NCBI GenBank assembly: GCA_905235655.1
Contig: CAJOMA010000003.1
Location: 4,067-68,066, forward strand
Direction: 5' to 3'
Length of the DNA stretch: 64,000 nt
Source of the DNA: an uncultured Oscillospiraceae bacterium
Lineage (GTDB): Bacteria > Bacillota > Clostridia > Oscillospirales > Oscillospiraceae
Shown: piece by piece, positions 36,334-42,784 of the stretch
How positions within the stretch are numbered: the first letter of the stretch is position 1
How the letters are laid out: each line of letters starts with the position of its first letter
The notes under the pieces: generated by a model
The model's database searches: none
The model's input: the letters and a program-made list of their open reading frames with translations, nothing else
Told to the model about the DNA's origin: nothing
Made by a program: the position numbers and the translations under genes

Positions 36334-38811
36334 CTACGGGATTTCCTCCTCCACCGGAGGGTTGGGGTCAAAGGTGCCGTTTTGCATCTGCTCCCACTGC
36401 TCTTTCGTAATCAGGAGCTGCCGCGGCTTCGCGCCCTCAAAGGGACCGACAATGCCGCGCTCTTCCATCTCGTCGACGATTCGCGCGGCTCTGGCATAGC
36501 CGAGCTTCAAGCGGCGCTGGAGCATGGAAACGGACGCCTGACCGGTTTCCAGAATGACCTCCACGGCGGCGGGCAGCAGCTCGTCGCCCTCGGTTTCCTC
36601 CGCGCCTCGAACAGGATCGGCAGCGGCAGCAGCCGATTTTCCGGTCTGCTCCGCGCGTTTTTCGATCTGCTCGATGATTTCCGTGGAGTAATTGCTCTGC
36701 GACTGCGCCTTGATCGAGGAGACGACAGCCTGCACTTCATCATCGGTGATGAAGCAGCCCTGAATACGCTTGGGTTTTCCCTGTCCGAGCGGTGCAAAGA
36801 GCATGTCGCCCTTGCCGACGAGCTTTTCCGCGCCCTGCGTGTCGAGTATGATACGAGACTCCATCGCAGACGAGACAGCGAAGGCGATTCTCGACGGAAT
36901 GTTTGCCTTCATCAGACCCGTAATAACGTCTGCGGAGGGACGCTGCGTGGCGATCACGAGGTGGATGCCGGACGCGCGGCCCATCTGCGCGATACGGCAG
37001 ATGGATTCTTCGACTTCCTTCGCCGCAACAAGCATCAGATCGGCAAGCTCGTCGATCACGACCACGATCTGCGGCATGGGCTGCTGATCGGGATCGTTGA
37101 CGATCGCCTTGTTGTACGATTCGAGATCGCGCACGCCCTCTTCGGACATCATGCGGTAGCGGCGCATCATTTCGGTCACCGTCCACTGCAGCGCGCCTGC
37201 CGCCTTCTTCGGGTCGGTCACAACGGGGATCAGCAGGTGCGGAATGCCGTTGTACACGCCGAGCTCGACCATCTTCGGGTCGACCATGATGAGCTTGACC
37301 TCATCCGGCTTCGCCTTATACAGCAGAGATAGAATGAGGGTGTTCATGCAGACGGATTTACCGGAGCCGGTCGTGCCTGCAATCAGCATGTGCGGCAGCT
37401 TGGAGATATCGCCGACAATACAGTTGCCGCTGATATCCTTGCCGACGGCGAAGGATATCTTGGACTTGCTGTTTTTGAACGACGGCGAGTCGATGACCTC
37501 GCGGGCGTAGACCACGTTGATCGCCTTGTTCGGCACCTCGATGCCGACGACGGAGATTTTATCGGGGATCGCGGAAATTCGCACGCCGGTCGCGCCGAGC
37601 GAGAGCGCGATATCGTCCGCAAGGTTGGTGATCTTGGACAGCTTCACGCCGCGATCGAGTTCGAGCTCATAGCGCGTGACGGACGGACCGCGGATGACGT
37701 CGACAATATGCGGCTCAATGCCGAAGCTTTCCAGCGTGTCTGCCAGACGCTTGGAGTTTTCACGCATTTCACCGGTTGCGTCGATCATGCTCTGGCGGCG
37801 AAGGTCAAGCAGGGAGATCGGCGGAAATTTGTATTCCTGCGCTTTCTCCTCCGCTTTCTTTTCGATTTCCTGCGTGATTTCAGCAGCTTCGGCGGCAGCC
37901 TCGCCCTTTTTGATCTTTTCCGGCTCCTGCGCAGCGGGCTTCGGCTTCGGCGCAGGCGGCATCAGCTCGATCTCGTCGATCGTGACCTGCTTCTTCTCTG
38001 CGTCGATCAGCGGCAGCGGCTTGTCCTCCGCCGGCGCTTCCTCCGCGTTCTGCGCACGAGGCTTCCTTCCCTTCTTCTCCTTCAAACCGGGAGGATCGTC
38101 GACCGGAAGGTCATAATCGGAAATCCTTTGCGGATGTCTGCGCTCATAACGCTCTATGCGCTTGTTCTGCACATGATTGACCAGTCGTTCTGCGGGATCA
38201 ATCTCCGCGGCAGGCTCTTTCTCCGCCTTCGGCATCGGCGGACGGTTTTTGATCGCCGTGATCAGGCTGTTGATCGTGATACCGAAAATCGTCATCACCT
38301 GCAGGATAATGAGGATCAAAAATACGATCAAGCCGCCGAATTTCGTGATCGCGGCTTCCAGAAGCTCCGCGATCAGACCGGGAATCAGGCCGCCGCTTGA
38401 CCAGTCCTTGCCACCCGCCCAAAGCGCCGACACGGACAGCAGCGTATTGCTGCCGGAGAAAATCTCATAGAGCAGGTGCGCAACACCGGAGACCGTGACG
38501 ATCAGAGTGAGCATGCAGAAGATTCGCAGCTTCACGGGTCTGTCCTTGCTCTTAAACAGCGTAATCGCAATCGCGACCAGCGCGATCGGTAATATGTACC
38601 TGCCCAACTGACCGAACAGACCGCCGACCAGACCAGCGCCGGTCGAGAGCAGGAAGGCGTCCGTAGGCAGACAGCACAAGAAGGCAAGGATCGCTATGAG
38701 CAGGAGCAGAATCCCCGTAAACTCCCGGCGGTTCTGCTGCTCGCGCATCGTCGCGGTCACATGCTTGCTCGACTGGGACGTATTTTTCTTGTTTTTGGAT
38801 TTATTCGACAT
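36334..38811 (-). CDS. ftsK: FtsK/SpoIIIE DNA translocase
   Basis: N-terminal TMs, GTTGSGKS, VIDELADLM, ATQRPS and gamma-domain LQRRLKLGYARAARI. Confidence 0.95.
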   Translation of the reverse strand: MSNKSKNKKNTSQSSKHVTATMREQQNRREFTGILLLLIAILAFLCCLPTDAFLLSTGAGLVGGLFGQLGRYILPIALVAIAITLFKSKDRPVKLRIFCMLTLIVTVSGVAHLLYEIFSGSNTLLSVSALWAGGKDWSSGGLIPGLIAELLEAAITKFGGLIVFLILIILQVMTIFGITINSLITAIKNRPPMPKAEKEPAAEIDPAERLVNHVQNKRIERYERRHPQRISDYDLPVDDPPGLKEKKGRKPRAQNAEEAPAEDKPLPLIDAEKKQVTIDEIELMPPAPKPKPAAQEPEKIKKGEAAAEAAEITQEIEKKAEEKAQEYKFPPISLLDLRRQSMIDATGEMRENSKRLADTLESFGIEPHIVDVIRGPSVTRYELELDRGVKLSKITNLADDIALSLGATGVRISAIPDKISVVGIEVPNKAINVVYAREVIDSPSFKNSKSKISFAVGKDISGNCIVGDISKLPHMLIAGTTGSGKSVCMNTLILSLLYKAKPDEVKLIMVDPKMVELGVYNGIPHLLIPVVTDPKKAAGALQWTVTEMMRRYRMMSEEGVRDLESYNKAIVNDPDQQPMPQIVVVIDELADLMLVAAKEVEESICRIAQMGRASGIHLVIATQRPSADVITGLMKANIPSRIAFAVSSAMESRIILDTQGAEKLVGKGDMLFAPLGQGKPKRIQGCFITDDEVQAVVSSIKAQSQSNYSTEIIEQIEKRAEQTGKSAAAAADPVRGAEETEGDELLPAAVEVILETGQASVSMLQRRLKLGYARAARIVDEMEERGIVGPFEGAKPRQLLITKEQWEQMQNGTFDPNPPVEEEIP

Positions 38812-38823
38812 TCCGTTTCCTCC

Positions 38824-39663
38824 TTACGAGTTGATCAGCGCGAGGATCAGCACGATCGCTGCGGCTTCCCAACTGTAATAAGCAAAGAGATTGAGCTTGT
38901 TTCGCTGCATCAGATAGCGGAAATACTGGATCGCGAAATAGCCTGCAGCCGCCGCGAAAGCGACGGTGAGCAGCATCGGCAGCAGGATCGCAAAGGTAAA
39001 CGAGCCGTAAAGAAAGGCGCGGATGAGATGATAGAAAAATGCGACAAATTCAAAGGCAAGCGTCAGCATATAGGCGAGGCGGACGTTGTATTCGTTTTTC
39101 AGTCCGCGCAGTCTGCCTACGGAAAGCGATATCCCGAGAGAGGAAAGACCCGGTAGCACCCAAAAGGCTCTGCCGATGCCGATCCACAGCATATCGGACA
39201 AGAGCACGCGGCGCTCATCCCTGCCGCCCTCGCGCGTGCGGAAGCAGAGAAACAGGATTAAACCGTTCAGAATAAACAGCAGCGCGACGTAAACCAAGCC
39301 GGAGAAATGATCGACCAGCGTCGCAAAAATCAGCGACAGCAGCATCGGCAGCAGCGCAAACAGACCGAGCACAATGCTGCGGACGCGCAGCCGGTCGTAA
39401 CGCTCCTTGCGTCTGCGCTTTTTGATTCCGGTGATTATCAGAACTTCCCTGCCGAGCGTCCGCGATTCCGGACGGAAGGCGATATTGATCGCGAGGATCA
39501 CGCCGATGCAGATCGCAAGGCGGATATAGTATCCGCCGCCCTCATTCAGCGGCGCCATATTAAACGCACTGCGCGCAAGCGCATAGTGACCCGTGAAGGA
39601 GATCGGCAGCAGCTCGGAAACGCCGCCGAACAGACCGTAAAGGATCGCTTCCCAAATCTTCAA
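38824..39663 (-). CDS. UppP/BacA-like membrane protein with degenerate catalytic motifs
   Basis: ELLPISFTGH and PGLSSLG correspond to the BacA motifs EFLPVSSTGH and PGxSRSG; TTG start after GAGGAG. Confidence 0.75.
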   Translation of the reverse strand: MKIWEAILYGLFGGVSELLPISFTGHYALARSAFNMAPLNEGGGYYIRLAICIGVILAINIAFRPESRTLGREVLIITGIKKRRRKERYDRLRVRSIVLGLFALLPMLLSLIFATLVDHFSGLVYVALLFILNGLILFLCFRTREGGRDERRVLLSDMLWIGIGRAFWVLPGLSSLGISLSVGRLRGLKNEYNVRLAYMLTLAFEFVAFFYHLIRAFLYGSFTFAILLPMLLTVAFAAAAGYFAIQYFRYLMQRNKLNLFAYYSWEAAAIVLILALINS

Positions 39664-39747
39664 GTTCCAGTCTCCTCTGTTTATTTTGGAACAGTCTTTC
39701 GCATTCTGAATGATTATATCACATTCCGCTTGAAATTTCCATCATTT

Positions 39748-40434
39748 TTATGAATTTCTCTTTGCGTTCTTCTTTTTTGCCGCAATCATGCGGTGCAGCG
39801 TGTCCAAGGCGTCGTGCAAGCTCCCGAGCCGGTCGATCAGACCGCTTTGCACCGCTTCCCTGCCGTAGACGATCGTGCCGACGTCGGTTGCGATCTGACC
39901 CGTCGCCATCATATATTCGGAGAACTTCTCCCTGCTAATTCTGGAGTTTGCGGTCACAAAATCCGTGATCTGCTCCTGAATCCGCTGGAAATAATGATAC
40001 GTTGCCGGTGCGCCGACGACCAGACCGCTCATTCTGACGGGATGGATCATCATACTGGCGGACGGCGCGATCATGCTTTTCTTTGCGGAAACAGCGAGCG
40101 GAATGCCGATCGAATGTCCGCCGCCAAGCACCAGAGAGACGGTCGGCTTCTTCATGCCGGAGATCAGCTCCGAGATCGCAAGCCCCGCCTCGATATCGCC
40201 GCCGACCGTATTGAGCAGCAGCAGGAGTCCGTCAATATCGTCGCTTTCCTCAATCGTCGCAAGCAGCGGCAGAACATGTTCGTATTTCGTCGTCTTTACC
40301 GTCTCTGGCGCGACCTGATGCCCCTCGATCTGACCGATGATCGTCAGAGTATAAATACAGCCGCGGTCTGTCCTCGTCAGACCCGCGCCCAAATCCTCCA
40401 TACGCTCCTGCGTCAGCGTTCTTTCTTCTTCCAT
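39748..40434 (-). CDS. tepA: ClpP-like protease TepA
   Basis: IIGQIEGH, TTKYEHVLP, LNTVGGD and LGGGHSIG motifs; tepA-ftsK synteny. Confidence 0.85.
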   Translation of the reverse strand: MEEERTLTQERMEDLGAGLTRTDRGCIYTLTIIGQIEGHQVAPETVKTTKYEHVLPLLATIEESDDIDGLLLLLNTVGGDIEAGLAISELISGMKKPTVSLVLGGGHSIGIPLAVSAKKSMIAPSASMMIHPVRMSGLVVGAPATYHYFQRIQEQITDFVTANSRISREKFSEYMMATGQIATDVGTIVYGREAVQSGLIDRLGSLHDALDTLHRMIAAKKKNAKRNS

Positions 40435-40458
40435 CGTTTGCCTCCAAGATTTTTCGCT

Positions 40459-40487
40459 TAGTATTCCACAGATTGGAAGAAGTAAAC
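40459..40487 (-). promoter_or_regulatory. Possible sigma-G promoter of tepA
   Basis: GTTTA-N17-AATACTA; tepA is forespore-expressed in B. subtilis. Confidence 0.4.
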
Positions 40488-40494
40488 ATAGAAC

Positions 40495-40523
40495 TTGAAA
40501 AAACCGCGGCTTCCTGTTATAAT
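40495..40523 (+). promoter_or_regulatory. sigma-A promoter of the TSCPD-domain gene
   Basis: TTGAAA-N17-TATAAT with extended TG. Confidence 0.7.
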
Positions 40524-40544
40524 GCAAAAAAAGGAGGGATTCAG

Positions 40545-40796
40545 ATGCATTATGAATATAAAACGCGCGGCGTCTGCGCGTCGAAAATCGTTTTTGATCT
40601 CGAAGACGGCGTTGTCGACAACATTCGATTCATCGGCGGCTGCTCCGGAAACACCCAGGGCGTTGCCGCCCTTGCAAACGGAAAGCCGGCGGACGAGGTA
40701 ATCTCCATTTTGCAGGGCATCCGCTGCGGTTTCAAGCAATCTTCCTGCCCCGACCAGCTCGCGCAGGCGCTGCTCGCCGCAAAGGAGCAACAATAA
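40545..40796 (+). CDS. Stand-alone TSCPD-domain protein (TIGR03905-like)
   Basis: GVCASKI, GGCSGN and IRCG..SSCPDQLA motifs; ATG after AAGGAGG. Confidence 0.85.
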   Translation: MHYEYKTRGVCASKIVFDLEDGVVDNIRFIGGCSGNTQGVAALANGKPADEVISILQGIRCGFKQSSCPDQLAQALLAAKEQQ

Positions 40797-40798
40797 AT

Positions 40799-40830
40799 AA
40801 GGAAGCTGCTGTTAATTCGGCAGCTTCCTT
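40799..40830. terminator. Bidirectional terminator
   Basis: aaggaagctgc / gcagcttcctt 11-bp stem between convergent genes. Confidence 0.8.
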
Positions 40831-40841
40831 TGTTATGTCTC

Positions 40842-42734
40842 TCAGATCATCAGACTGCAAACAAGATCGCTGAACGACGTCGGGTCTTCCAGCGGCAGAT
40901 TCGCCATCAGCAGACCCTGCTGATACAGCAAATCTGCATATTTCTTCGCCTTATCGGGATCGGACGCAACGCACGCGCGCAGGACAGACAGCGCCGCGTG
41001 ATCCGGATTGATCTGCAGCACCTTGCCGGCCTTGAGGTCGGCGTTCGGGTCCATCGCGCGAAAATACTTCTCCATCTCAAAGCTCATGCCGCCGTCCGGC
41101 ACCATGGAGACCGCGTGCGAGCCGAGTTCGTTCGAAACGCGCACGTCCGCGACCTTGTCGCCGAGTGTTTCCTTGAGGAAGGCAACGCAGTCCTTGAACT
41201 GCTCCGCTTTTTCCTCTGCGGCCTTCTTTTCCTCGTCCGTCGCAAGATCGAGCTCGTCCGTCAGGATATTGCGGAATTCATGCTCCTCATACTTGTTCAG
41301 CGTCTGCGGGATGAATTCATCGACCTGCTCCGTCAGAAGCAGCACGTCGAAGCCGCGCTCGCGTAGCAGGGTCGTCTGCGGCAGCTTGGAAAGCTGCTGC
41401 GCCGTATTGCCGGTCACAAAGTAGATGTGCTTTTGCGACTGCGGCATCTTCTCGCAGTATTCCTTGAGGGTCACGAGCTTCCCTTCCTTGTCGGAATGGA
41501 ATTCAACCAGGTCCTGCAGCATTTCCTTGTGCATGCCGTAATCGGAGACAAGACCGTACTTGAGATTGCGTCCGAAGGCGGCGTAGAACTTTTCATATGC
41601 CGCTCTGTCCTGCTCCAGCAGGCGAAGCAGCTCCGCCTTGATCTTCTTTTCGAGATTAGACGCAATTGTTTTCAGCTCTCTCGTGTGCTGCAGCAGCTCG
41701 CGGCTGATGTTCAGACTCAGATCCTGCGTATCCACTACGCCGCGGACGAAACGGAAATGCTCCGGCAGGAGGTCTTCGCAGTGATCCATGATCATCACGC
41801 CGGAGGAATAGAGCTGCAGACCGGACTTATAATCCTTCGTGTAGAAATCATACGGCGCTTTCGCAGGAATGTAGAGCAGCGCCTTATAGGTGACCGTGCC
41901 CTCGACGGAGATCGGGATCACGCTCACCGGCTCCTCGTAATCAAAGAACTTCTCGCGGTAGAAGGCTTTGTATTCCTCGTCCGTGACGTCCTTCTTGTTC
42001 TTTTGCCAGAGCGGCACCATGGAGTTCAGCGTCTGATCCTCAAGAACCGTCTCATATTTCGGCTCGTCGGCGTCCATCGTTTCCTCCGTCGGCTTGCGCT
42101 CCTCCACCTCCATACGGATCGGATAGCGGATATAGTCAGAATACTTTTTCACCAGGCCGCGCAGGCGGTAGTCCCCGAGATAGTCGCTGTAACGCTCTTC
42201 CTCCGTATCGGGCTTGAGCTTCAGAATGATCTGCGTGCCCGCGCTCTCCTTTTCGCATTCCGTGACCGTATAGCCGTCTGCGCCGGAGGAGTGCCATTTC
42301 CACGCCTGATCTTCCCCGTACCTCTTCGAGATCACGGTGACCTCCTCGGCGACCATGAACGCGGAATAGAAGCCGACGCCGAACTGACCGATGATGTCGA
42401 TATCCTCCTGCTTTTCCATCGCCGCCTTGAAATTCAGAGAGCCGCTGTGCGCGATTGTGCCGAGGTTTTCTTCCATTTCCTCCCTGCTCATGCCGATGCC
42501 GTTATCGGAAACGGTCAGCGTTCCTGCCTCCTTATCGGCGGCGAGGCGGATATAGAAATCGCTTCTGCTCAAGCCGACGGACTGATCCGTCAGCGCCAGA
42601 TATGCGAGCTTATCAATCGCGTCAGAGGCGTTCGAAATCAGCTCCCGAAGAAAAATCTCCTTATGCGTATAAATCGAATTGATCATCAAGTCCAGCAGGC
42701 GCTTGGATTCCGCCTTAAACTGCTTCTTTGCCAT
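40842..42734 (-). CDS. htpG: Molecular chaperone HtpG (Hsp90)
   Basis: FLRELISNASDA, DNGIGM, IGQFGVGFYSAFMV and GVVDTQDL motifs. Confidence 0.96.
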   Translation of the reverse strand: MAKKQFKAESKRLLDLMINSIYTHKEIFLRELISNASDAIDKLAYLALTDQSVGLSRSDFYIRLAADKEAGTLTVSDNGIGMSREEMEENLGTIAHSGSLNFKAAMEKQEDIDIIGQFGVGFYSAFMVAEEVTVISKRYGEDQAWKWHSSGADGYTVTECEKESAGTQIILKLKPDTEEERYSDYLGDYRLRGLVKKYSDYIRYPIRMEVEERKPTEETMDADEPKYETVLEDQTLNSMVPLWQKNKKDVTDEEYKAFYREKFFDYEEPVSVIPISVEGTVTYKALLYIPAKAPYDFYTKDYKSGLQLYSSGVMIMDHCEDLLPEHFRFVRGVVDTQDLSLNISRELLQHTRELKTIASNLEKKIKAELLRLLEQDRAAYEKFYAAFGRNLKYGLVSDYGMHKEMLQDLVEFHSDKEGKLVTLKEYCEKMPQSQKHIYFVTGNTAQQLSKLPQTTLLRERGFDVLLLTEQVDEFIPQTLNKYEEHEFRNILTDELDLATDEEKKAAEEKAEQFKDCVAFLKETLGDKVADVRVSNELGSHAVSMVPDGGMSFEMEKYFRAMDPNADLKAGKVLQINPDHAALSVLRACVASDPDKAKKYADLLYQQGLLMANLPLEDPTSFSDLVCSLMI

Positions 42735-42757
42735 GTAAATCATCTTCCTTTGTAGTT

Positions 42758-42784
42758 TTGGCACTCTGCGCTTTTGAGTGCTAA
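42758..42784 (-). promoter_or_regulatory. CIRCE operator (HrcA)
   Basis: TTAGCACTC-N9-GAGTGCCAA, one mismatch to consensus, just downstream of TTGCAA-N16-TATAAT. Confidence 0.88.

What the first reader, a model, noticed from the sequence alone, without database searches (positions are those of the whole stretch)
38824..39663. UppP/BacA homolog missing its catalytic residues, coupled to ftsK
Aligned by eye to E. coli BacA: E17-G-L-T-E21-F-L-P-V-S26-S27-T-G-H becomes G-G-V-S-E-L-L-P-I-S-F-T-G-H (E17G, S27F), and P-G-F-S-R174-S-G becomes P-G-L-S-S-L-G (R174S). S27 is the nucleophile and R174 binds phosphate. The ORF is full length, has a good RBS and ends 12 nt before ftsK, so it looks maintained. 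Inference: a pseudo-phosphatase that may keep lipid-carrier binding, the flippase role proposed for BacA, or a septal scaffolding role.
Basis: partly seen in the sequence, partly recalled or inferred. Interest (0 to 1): 0.6.

Follow-up and report, generated by a model that had tools for sequence, protein, structure and literature searches.

The report
Catalytically dead UppP kept before ftsK
A gut Oscillospiraceae bacterium keeps, under clear purifying selection, a full-length copy of the cell-wall lipid-recycling enzyme UppP/BacA whose essential catalytic serine and arginine are gone, next to a second normal UppP elsewhere in the genome, so it is a natural test of whether this membrane fold has a job other than hydrolysis.

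Summary
Window 38824-39663 (-) encodes a 279-aa, full-length BacA/UppP-fold protein: Pfam 117 bits, AlphaFold pLDDT 88.8, TM 0.76-0.78 to E. coli BacA 5OON. E. coli S27 is Phe, R174 is Ser and E17 is Gly.

This is not one decaying allele.
- All 120 protein homologues and 44 of 44 genomic orthologues in the genus carry F/Y at S27, and all but one lack R174. S26, H30 and S173 are invariant and E21 nearly so.
- Close species pairs give dN/dS of 0.06-0.15.
- 54 of 55 genomes of the genus also hold a canonical uppP; the own genome's copy scores 284 bits.

The gene descends from the intact uppP that lies between a ClpP-like gene and ftsK in over 100 other Oscillospiraceae genera. The ftsK coupling is therefore inherited and is no evidence for a new septal role. 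Similar catalytic losses recur independently in this ftsK-linked clade, mostly where a second uppP exists; in two genera the gene is deleted.

Pocket positions are re-fixed in new states (Q164 to Arg), which points to remodelling rather than decay. My best reading is a non-hydrolytic protein that binds polyprenyl-phosphate; its function is untested. The scan noted the same thing earlier on other DNA (e1-5267606, e1-5200728). No paper describing it was found.

The parts
38824..39663 (-). 279-aa BacA/UppP-fold paralogue lacking S27, R174, R189 and E17 (E. coli numbering)
39586..39627 (-). BacA motif 1, residues 13-26 (GGVSELLPISFTGH). Gly replaces E17/Q17 and Phe replaces the nucleophile S27. 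E21, S26 and H30 are kept.
   Evidence: mutant data from PMC4641660
39133..39153 (-). BacA motif 2, residues 171-177 (PGLSSLG). S173 is kept, R174 becomes Ser and S175 becomes Leu.
39169..39171 (-). Arg165 at the position of E. coli Q164. It is Gln in all intact ftsK-linked and canonical copies, and Arg in 98% of the dead clade (a re-fixed pocket position).
39379..39426 (-). Strongly basic loop, residues 80-95 (KKRRRKERYDR...R95, with R95 invariant)
38812..38823 (-). 12-nt spacer GGAGGAAACGGA between the stop codon and the ftsK ATG, carrying the ftsK ribosome-binding site
36334..38811 (-). ftsK/spoIIIE (825 aa), the only FtsK-family gene found in the genome
39748..40527 (-). ClpP-family (TepA-like) gene upstream. 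It is the conserved neighbour in the genus and in the family.
39713..39741 (-). Sigma-70-like promoter match (TGGAAA, 17 nt, TG-TATAAT) in the 84-nt gap before the gene. This is a consensus match only.

Best explanation
The gene encodes a UppP/BacA-fold membrane protein that can no longer hydrolyse undecaprenyl pyrophosphate by the known Ser27 mechanism. It is nevertheless kept by selection for a non-hydrolytic job.

Shown: it descends from the housekeeping uppP that sits between a ClpP-like gene and ftsK in Oscillospiraceae. In the ancestor of this genus it lost S27, R174 and R189. The genus also carries a second, canonical uppP. The dead copy then evolved about twice as fast as the canonical one but stayed under purifying selection. 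Several pocket positions became fixed in new states: Gly at 17, Phe/Tyr at 27, Arg at 164 and Ser at 178.

Inferred: the two re-entrant loops (P-x-S and P-G-x-S), E21, S26, H30, S173 and the new Arg165 still form a phosphate-binding pocket. The aromatic residue at position 27 fills the site of the leaving beta-phosphate. The protein would therefore bind a polyprenyl-phosphate head group, most likely C55-P, without cleaving it. It would act as a carrier-lipid holder or translocator for wall synthesis during division or sporulation.
For: Fold and family: Pfam BacA full length; AF2 pLDDT 88.8; Foldseek 5OON/6FMT at TM 0.73-0.80 and E about 7e-8.

Loss of catalysis: in E. coli, S27A keeps 0.013% activity, R174A 0.13% and R189A 12%; S27A and R174A do not complement (PMC4641660; PMC5852022).

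Fixation: 119 of 120 homologues have F/Y at position 27 and none has Arg at 174. In 44 genus loci, S27 is F/Y in 44 and R174 is replaced in 43.

Selection: NG86 dN/dS is 0.06-0.15 for close pairs, against 0.02-0.10 for the canonical uppP and 0-0.07 for tepA. Polymorphisms between metagenomes are 5 synonymous and 3 conservative.

Redundancy: 54 of 55 genus genomes have a canonical uppP and 52 of 55 have the dead copy.

Origin: the synteny tepA, X, ftsK holds with intact motifs in 19 of 19 other genera first examined. In the tree, the dead clade (support 100) sits inside the ftsK-linked clade on a stem of 1.31 substitutions per site, apart from the canonical clade (support 99).

Remodelling rather than decay: conserved switches at pocket positions, including Q164 to R at 98%.

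Recurrence: eleven other genera of the family carry changes in these motifs in the ftsK-linked copy. Ten affect E21, S27, H30 or R174; the eleventh has only P24A, S175C and G176A. Eight of the eleven also hold a second canonical uppP. Three species of another family show similar losses.
Against: No biochemical, expression or localisation data exist for this protein or any member of the clade. Lipid binding is inferred only from retained motifs.

Invariant S26, H30 and E21 could also mean residual or altered catalysis.

[quoted passage not shown] The genome also already has a DedA-family protein, a candidate UndP flippase.

In two well-assembled genera that have only the canonical type, the ftsK-linked gene is simply deleted and tepA directly abuts ftsK. 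Any second function is therefore not universally needed.

The pairwise dN/dS used a simple method, and distant pairs are saturated at synonymous sites.
Confidence: 0.55

Rival explanations
1. It is a rewired enzyme. The protein still hydrolyses a phosphate ester using the invariant S26, H30 and E21 with the new Arg165 in place of R174. The substrate might be a different one, for example C55-P to undecaprenol, or another lipid pyrophosphate.
For: S26, H30 and S173 are 100% conserved and E21 about 90% in the dead clade, which is more than a pure scaffold would seem to need. Q164 to Arg is fixed at a pocket position. Many UppP-like representatives elsewhere carry Ala or Gly at S27 while keeping R174, so S27 is not universal in the wider family.
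Against: In E. coli, S26A keeps 15% activity while S27A keeps 0.013%, so S26 does not substitute for S27 there. R174 and R189 are both gone, and their positions are variable rather than re-fixed. A bulky Phe sits where the nucleophile was, and Phe rather than Tyr is the majority state.
Confidence: 0.17
2. It is a protein-protein scaffold or regulator. The membrane protein is kept because it binds FtsK/SpoIIIE, the TepA-like protease or wall synthases, independently of any lipid ligand.
For: The gene order with the tepA-like gene and ftsK is conserved, with a 12-nt gap to ftsK. ftsK here is the only FtsK/SpoIIIE gene in a genome that keeps spoIVA, so it probably serves both division and sporulation. 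A conserved basic loop with invariant R95 could be an interaction site.
Against: The synteny is inherited from the active enzyme, so it carries no specific information. The re-fixed residues cluster in the former active-site motifs rather than on an outer face, as far as sequence mapping shows. No interaction data exist.
Confidence: 0.15
3. It is a relic. The ORF is a decaying former uppP that is kept open only because its translation or transcription is needed to express ftsK downstream.
For: The 12-nt spacing to ftsK suggests translational coupling. The protein evolves about 2.3 times faster than the canonical uppP (median dN 0.47 against 0.20). Other genera have deleted the gene outright.
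Against: dN/dS is about 0.1 and not near 1. About 23 columns are invariant across sequences down to 38% identity, with new conserved states. Length is constant at about 279 aa in 55 species. The AF2 model is confident.
Confidence: 0.04

Closest known systems
E. coli BacA/UppP, undecaprenyl-pyrophosphate phosphatase (PDB 5OON, 6CB2)
   Same: Same Pfam family over its full length, and the same interdigitated inverted-repeat fold (TM 0.76-0.78). The two re-entrant loop motifs are recognisable, and E21, S26, H30 and S173 are kept.
   Different: About 21% identity. S27, R174, S175, R189 and E17 are replaced, and Q164 is Arg. It scores below all NCBIfam UppP equivalog cut-offs, and phmmer against PDB sequences does not find BacA. 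It is predicted to be inactive by the Ser27 mechanism.
ftsK-linked UppP of other Oscillospiraceae/Oscillospirales genera (QG-x-x-EFLP-x-SSSGH and PGLSRSG), e.g. loci L007-L025
   Same: Orthologous position between the ClpP-like gene and ftsK, the same clade in the tree and similar length. 28-33% identity.
   Different: Those copies keep every catalytic residue and are the sole BacA-family gene in most genomes. The window's clade sits on a long stem with the catalytic residues lost.
Canonical second UppP of the same genome (G000:C31:10627-11475; EGITEWLPISSTGH and PGTSRSG)
   Same: Same family and the same genome.
   Different: 26% identity. It scores 284 bits on Pfam against 117, belongs to a different deep clade, is not next to ftsK and has an intact catalytic set.
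UndP translocases UptA (DedA family) and PopT (DUF368)
   Same: A possible functional analogy only: membrane proteins that handle C55-P without hydrolysing it.
   Different: They are not in the same Pfam family (PF02673 against PF09335 and PF04018). The genome has one DedA gene and no DUF368 was found. No transport evidence exists for this protein.

Membership tests
BacA/UppP family (Pfam PF02673) | Full-length profile match above the gathering score | tested here: met
   117.2 bits against a cut-off of 33.4, residues 6-268 on profile positions 1-255 of 257
BacA/UppP family (Pfam PF02673) | BacA fold (interdigitated inverted repeat with two re-entrant helix-loop-helix elements) | tested here: met
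   AF2 pLDDT 88.8 and pTM 0.86. Foldseek top hits are 5OON and 6FMT at TM 0.73-0.80; the next hits have TM below 0.4.
Undecaprenyl-diphosphatase UppP (functional equivalog, EC 3.6.1.27) | Motif 1 with the nucleophile Ser27 | tested here: not met
   Phe23 in the window, and F/Y in 119 of 120 homologues and 44 of 44 genus loci
Undecaprenyl-diphosphatase UppP (functional equivalog, EC 3.6.1.27) | Motif 2 with Arg174 (also Arg189) | tested here: not met
   Ser175 in the window; no Arg in 120 of 120 homologues. The R189 position is variable.
Undecaprenyl-diphosphatase UppP (functional equivalog, EC 3.6.1.27) | Score above the NCBIfam equivalog cut-off | tested here: not met
   Best is TIGR00753 at 82.7 bits against a cut-off of 217.5; all 12 models fall below their cut-offs
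Undecaprenyl-diphosphatase UppP (functional equivalog, EC 3.6.1.27) | C55-PP phosphatase activity or complementation | not testable with these tools
   Needs a bench assay
ftsK-linked UppP clade of Oscillospirales | Position between the ClpP-like (tepA-like) gene and ftsK | tested here: met
   Window. Of the 43 other genus loci fetched (the window's own region was run as a control), ftsK was found in all but one, which ends at its contig end, and the tepA-like gene in all but two. ftsK follows in 19 of 19 other genera first examined.
ftsK-linked UppP clade of Oscillospirales | Phylogenetic placement inside that clade, apart from the canonical second type | tested here: met
   The split between the two types has SH-aLRT 99 and the dead clade has 100 inside the ftsK-linked side. 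Its exact sister is unresolved, and long-branch attraction to other degenerate copies is possible.
UndP translocases (DedA/UptA, DUF368/PopT) | DedA (PF09335) or DUF368 (PF04018) domain | tested here: not met
   Only BacA is significant on this protein. DedA lies elsewhere in the genome and no DUF368 was found.

The most novel reading that the evidence does not exclude
The BacA/UppP fold has a second, hydrolysis-independent activity: translocating C55-P, or handing it to the wall-synthesis machinery at division and sporulation septa. This genus-wide clade, together with the independent S27/R174 losses in other ftsK-linked copies (some of them the only BacA gene in their genome), would be nature's separation-of-function alleles. 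In them only that second activity is left.
Probability: 0.22. Interest if true: 0.75.

Novelty: new variant of a known kind. Interest (0 to 1): 0.52.

Why it matters
UppP/BacA recycles the lipid carrier for peptidoglycan and other surface polymers. It is an antibiotic and bacteriocin target. Both 2018 crystal structures raised the idea that its transporter-like fold might also flip C55-P, and this has not been settled.

A clade of 55 species keeps the fold under selection with the hydrolytic residues removed and the pocket re-fixed. Repeated independent losses occur in the same ftsK-linked lineage. Together these give ready-made proteins for asking what the fold does besides hydrolysis.

The finding also matters for annotation. 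These genes are currently named 'undecaprenyl-diphosphate phosphatase'. In lineages where such a copy is the only BacA gene, pathway reconstruction would wrongly credit UppP activity.

Tried and rejected
Synteny was obtained with the genome search and the fetch from genomes instead.
- phmmer of the protein against PDB sequences found no BacA, only chance FXYD hits. The relation to 5OON needed the paralogue bridge and the fold search.
- No RNA holder was listed for the stretch, so nothing can be said about expression or co-transcription.
- A literature search for TepA/YlzJ and sporulation gave nothing useful. The B. subtilis order tepA, ylzJ, spoIIIE is only my recollection.
- Searches for papers on UppP pseudoenzymes or paralogues found none describing this clade.
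- In the tree, rows L100 and L072 had absurd branch lengths (8.0 and 5.1). These are most likely errors of my regex-based ORF extraction, and they were ignored and left out of the conservation table.
- A first regex for motif extraction failed and was corrected.
- The association between a second uppP and loss of catalytic residues was tested with 8 of 19 against 3 of about 88 genomes (Fisher p = 3e-5). It treats genera as independent, and the motif state of about 65 single-copy genomes was inferred from Pfam scores of 224 bits or more, so it is only indicative.
- The idea that the coupling to ftsK signals a new septal role was rejected, because the linkage is ancestral.
- A bacteriocin-receptor decoy role (UppP is a receptor for some two-peptide bacteriocins) was considered but nothing here bears on it.
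- The model's coordinates could not be inspected, so pocket geometry was not analysed.

Full report
**1. What is there**

Window 38824-39663 on the minus strand holds a 279-codon ORF. It has a TTG start preceded by GAGGAG. Its TAA stop is followed by the 12-nt GGAGGAAACGGA and then the ATG of an 825-aa ftsK (36334-38811). Upstream, after an 84-nt gap, lies a ClpP-family gene (39748-40527).

The protein matches Pfam BacA over its whole length (117.2 bits, cut-off 33.4). It misses every NCBIfam UppP equivalog cut-off by a wide margin (82.7 against 217.5 at best). An AlphaFold2 model built on 25 homologues is confident (pLDDT 88.8, pTM 0.86). Its only real structural neighbours are E. coli BacA entries 5OON and 6FMT (TM 0.73-0.80). 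The fold is therefore intact.

**2. The substitutions**

The same genome holds a second BacA gene on another contig (G000:C31:10627-11475, 284 bits). It carries the canonical motifs and aligns to PDB 5OON/6CB2.

Using it as a bridge, the window protein reads G-G-V-S-E-L-L-P-I-S-F-T-G-H and P-G-L-S-S-L-G. In E. coli numbering this means:
- E17 to G, S27 to F, R174 to S and S175 to L.
- E21, S26, H30 and S173 are kept.

A better alignment also shows loss of R189, P202 and G206, and a change of Q164 to Arg.

The functional weight of these residues comes from the literature. In E. coli, S27A keeps 0.013% of activity, R174A 0.13%, E21A 1.4% and R189A 12%. S27A, R174A and E21A fail to complement (PMC4641660). 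S27 is the proposed nucleophile and R174 stabilises the pentavalent intermediate (PMC5852022).

**3. It is a clade, not an allele**

A search of 5.8 billion proteins returned 130 homologues, of which the 120 best are listed, from 100% down to 38% identity and nearly all 273-281 aa. Across the 120:
- Position 27 is F or Y in 119.
- Position 174 is never Arg.
- Position 17 is Gly in 118.
- S26, H30 and S173 are invariant, and E21 is kept in 112.

In the genome collection, the window's genus has 55 species genomes. 52 carry this divergent copy (98-138 bits on Pfam) and 54 carry the canonical one (231-298 bits). The exceptions are incomplete assemblies.

I fetched 43 further genus loci and ran the window's own region alongside them as a control. 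All show the order tepA-like, this gene, ftsK wherever the contig allows. Across the 44, S27 is F/Y in 44 of 44 and R174 is replaced in 43 of 44.

Contigs of four runs from two independent studies carry the same ORF with no indel. They show eight differences inside the ORF: five synonymous and three conservative (V/A, I/V, I/L).

**4. Selection**

I computed Nei-Gojobori dN/dS on the same genome pairs for four genes. For close pairs (dS below 1):

| Gene | dN/dS, close pairs |
|---|---|
| Dead copy | 0.06-0.15 |
| Canonical uppP | 0.02-0.10 |
| tepA-like gene | 0-0.07 |

Over all pairs, the dead copy's dN is about 2.3 times that of the canonical copy (median 0.47 against 0.20). It is similar to that of the variable N-terminal part of FtsK.

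The gene is therefore more relaxed than a housekeeping enzyme but clearly constrained. It is not a pseudogene kept open for the sake of ftsK.

**5. Where it came from**

In 120 other genera of the same family, a profile of the dead clade finds one full-length hit per genome at 28-33% identity. In 19 of 19 loci examined it lies directly before ftsK, and usually after the tepA-like gene.

A Pfam scan of the same genomes shows three situations:
- About 85 have only this ftsK-linked type.
- About 20 also have the second type (E-G-I-T-E-W-L-P-I-S-S-T-G-H).
- Four have only the second type.

A maximum-likelihood tree (LG+C20, quick search) separates the two types (support 99). It places the genus's dead clade (support 100) inside the ftsK-linked side on a stem of 1.31 substitutions per site. 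Typical internal branches are 0.1-0.3. The exact sister group is unresolved, and its weak grouping with other degenerate copies may be long-branch attraction.

The ftsK coupling is therefore inherited from an active enzyme and cannot be read as evidence for a new septal function.

**6. The loss is recurrent**

Low-scoring ftsK-linked copies in other genera of the family turned out to have changes in the same motifs. One of them (L064, not listed below) has only P24A, S175C and G176A and keeps every catalytic residue. The other ten have changes of their own at E21, S27, H30 or R174:
- E21R, S27V, R174I
- E21A, S27A
- S27G, H30I
- E21S, S27T
- S27R
- S27V
- S27G
- R174S (in two genera)
- E21V, S27A, R174G

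These copies have long terminal branches (0.7-2.9, against about 0.35 for intact copies).

Eight of 19 genomes with a second uppP have lost E21, S27 or R174 in the ftsK-linked copy. This compares with three of about 88 genomes without a second copy (Fisher p = 3e-5). The test is indicative only, because genera are not independent and most single-copy states were inferred from score.

In two well-assembled genera that keep only the second type, the tepA-like gene abuts ftsK directly and the BacA gene is gone.

In another family of the order, three species (98-100% complete) carry a ftsK-linked copy without S27 as their only BacA gene. Among the 150 representatives nearest to the clade's profile in a 1.8-billion-protein library, only five full-length clusters belong to this clade. 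Many others carry Ala or Gly at S27, or Gly, Ser, Gln or His at R174.

After redundancy arises, the ftsK-linked copy can thus stay intact, be deleted, or lose catalysis yet persist. The window's genus is the largest and oldest example seen of the third outcome.

**7. Remodelling, not erosion**

I compared 42 dead, 27 intact ftsK-linked and 26 canonical sequences column by column.
- Some catalytic positions became variable: R174, S175, R189, P202 and G206.
- Others are fixed in a new state in at least 93% of the dead clade: Gly at 17, Phe/Tyr at 27, Arg at 164, Ser at 178, Tyr at 13 and Asn at query position 133. Tyr at 197 is fixed in 86%.
- New invariant residues appear: R249, S110, G44 and L39.
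- The loop skeletons P-x-S and P-G-x-S, with E21, S26, H30 and S173, stay invariant or nearly so.

This pattern argues for a pocket that still does something.

**8. How it most likely works**

Shown:
- The fold is intact.
- The Ser27 mechanism is impossible.
- The gene is under selection.
- A canonical UppP and two PAP2 genes are available for C55-PP hydrolysis.

Inferred:
- The remodelled pocket still binds a polyprenyl-phosphate head group through the loop amides, S26, S173, H30 and the new Arg165.
- The aromatic side chain occupies the beta-phosphate site, which would favour the monophosphate C55-P.
- The protein holds or moves the carrier lipid without cleaving it.

Context that fits but does not prove this:
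- ftsK here is the only FtsK/SpoIIIE gene, and the genome keeps spoIVA, so the locus probably serves both division and sporulation.
- In B. subtilis, UppP rather than BcrC is needed for normal sporulation (PMC5723303).

Against a flippase reading:
- Canonical UppP showed no UndP-transport signal in B. subtilis or S. aureus screens.
- A DedA-family gene is present in this genome, although no DUF368 was found.

I put 0.55 on 'dead for C55-PP hydrolysis and kept for non-hydrolytic lipid-carrier handling'. I put 0.17 on a rewired enzyme, 0.15 on a lipid-independent scaffold or regulator, and 0.04 on a relic.

**9. Comparison and novelty**

The protein is a member of the BacA Pfam family and fold, and of the ftsK-linked UppP clade. 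It fails the defining features of the UppP enzyme equivalog: S27, R174 and the curated score. Public records name such proteins 'undecaprenyl-diphosphate phosphatase'.

Full-text searches found no paper describing catalytically dead UppP paralogues.

Earlier notes of this scan had reached the same reading on other genomes. My searches test it independently here and extend it to recurrent losses and deletions.

I class it as a new variant of a known kind, of moderate interest. It is well supported as an evolutionary fact, but its function is open.

Noticed in passing
L140 (G089:C2) and L141 (G115:C27): In two Oscillospiraceae genera (96% complete) that carry only the canonical second-type uppP, the tepA-like gene directly abuts ftsK. 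The ftsK-linked BacA gene has been deleted rather than degraded.
   Followed up: partly
L175, L177, L178 (genus g138, family f18 of the same order): Three species carry a ftsK-linked copy lacking S27 as their only BacA-family gene (S26C with S27G; S27R; S27A with G29A). C55-PP recycling there presumably relies on PAP2 enzymes.
   Followed up: partly
window 39748-40527 (-): The ClpP-family (TepA-like) gene is much more conserved than its BacA neighbour (74-96% against 38-91% identity within the genus) and is almost always adjacent. Its catalytic residues and role were not examined.
   Followed up: no
window 36334-38811 (-) and G000:C49:1853-2551: ftsK in the window is the only FtsK/SpoIIIE-family gene found in this 1.6-Mb genome, which also keeps spoIVA. 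One translocase probably serves both division and sporulation.
   Followed up: partly
window 40473-40796 (+): A 107-aa ORF rich in conserved Cys and Gly lies between the tepA-like gene and htpG (40842-42764, -). It has a strong promoter-like site at 40495-40523 and a terminator-like hairpin at 40799-40830. It was not identified.
   Followed up: no
proteins P0126-P0270: Among UppP-like representatives from all public data nearest to this clade's profile, many have Ala, Gly, Glu or Arg at S27, or Gly, Ser, Gln or His at R174, with the rest of the motifs intact. Loss of the 'essential' residues seems widespread in this part of the family.
   Followed up: partly
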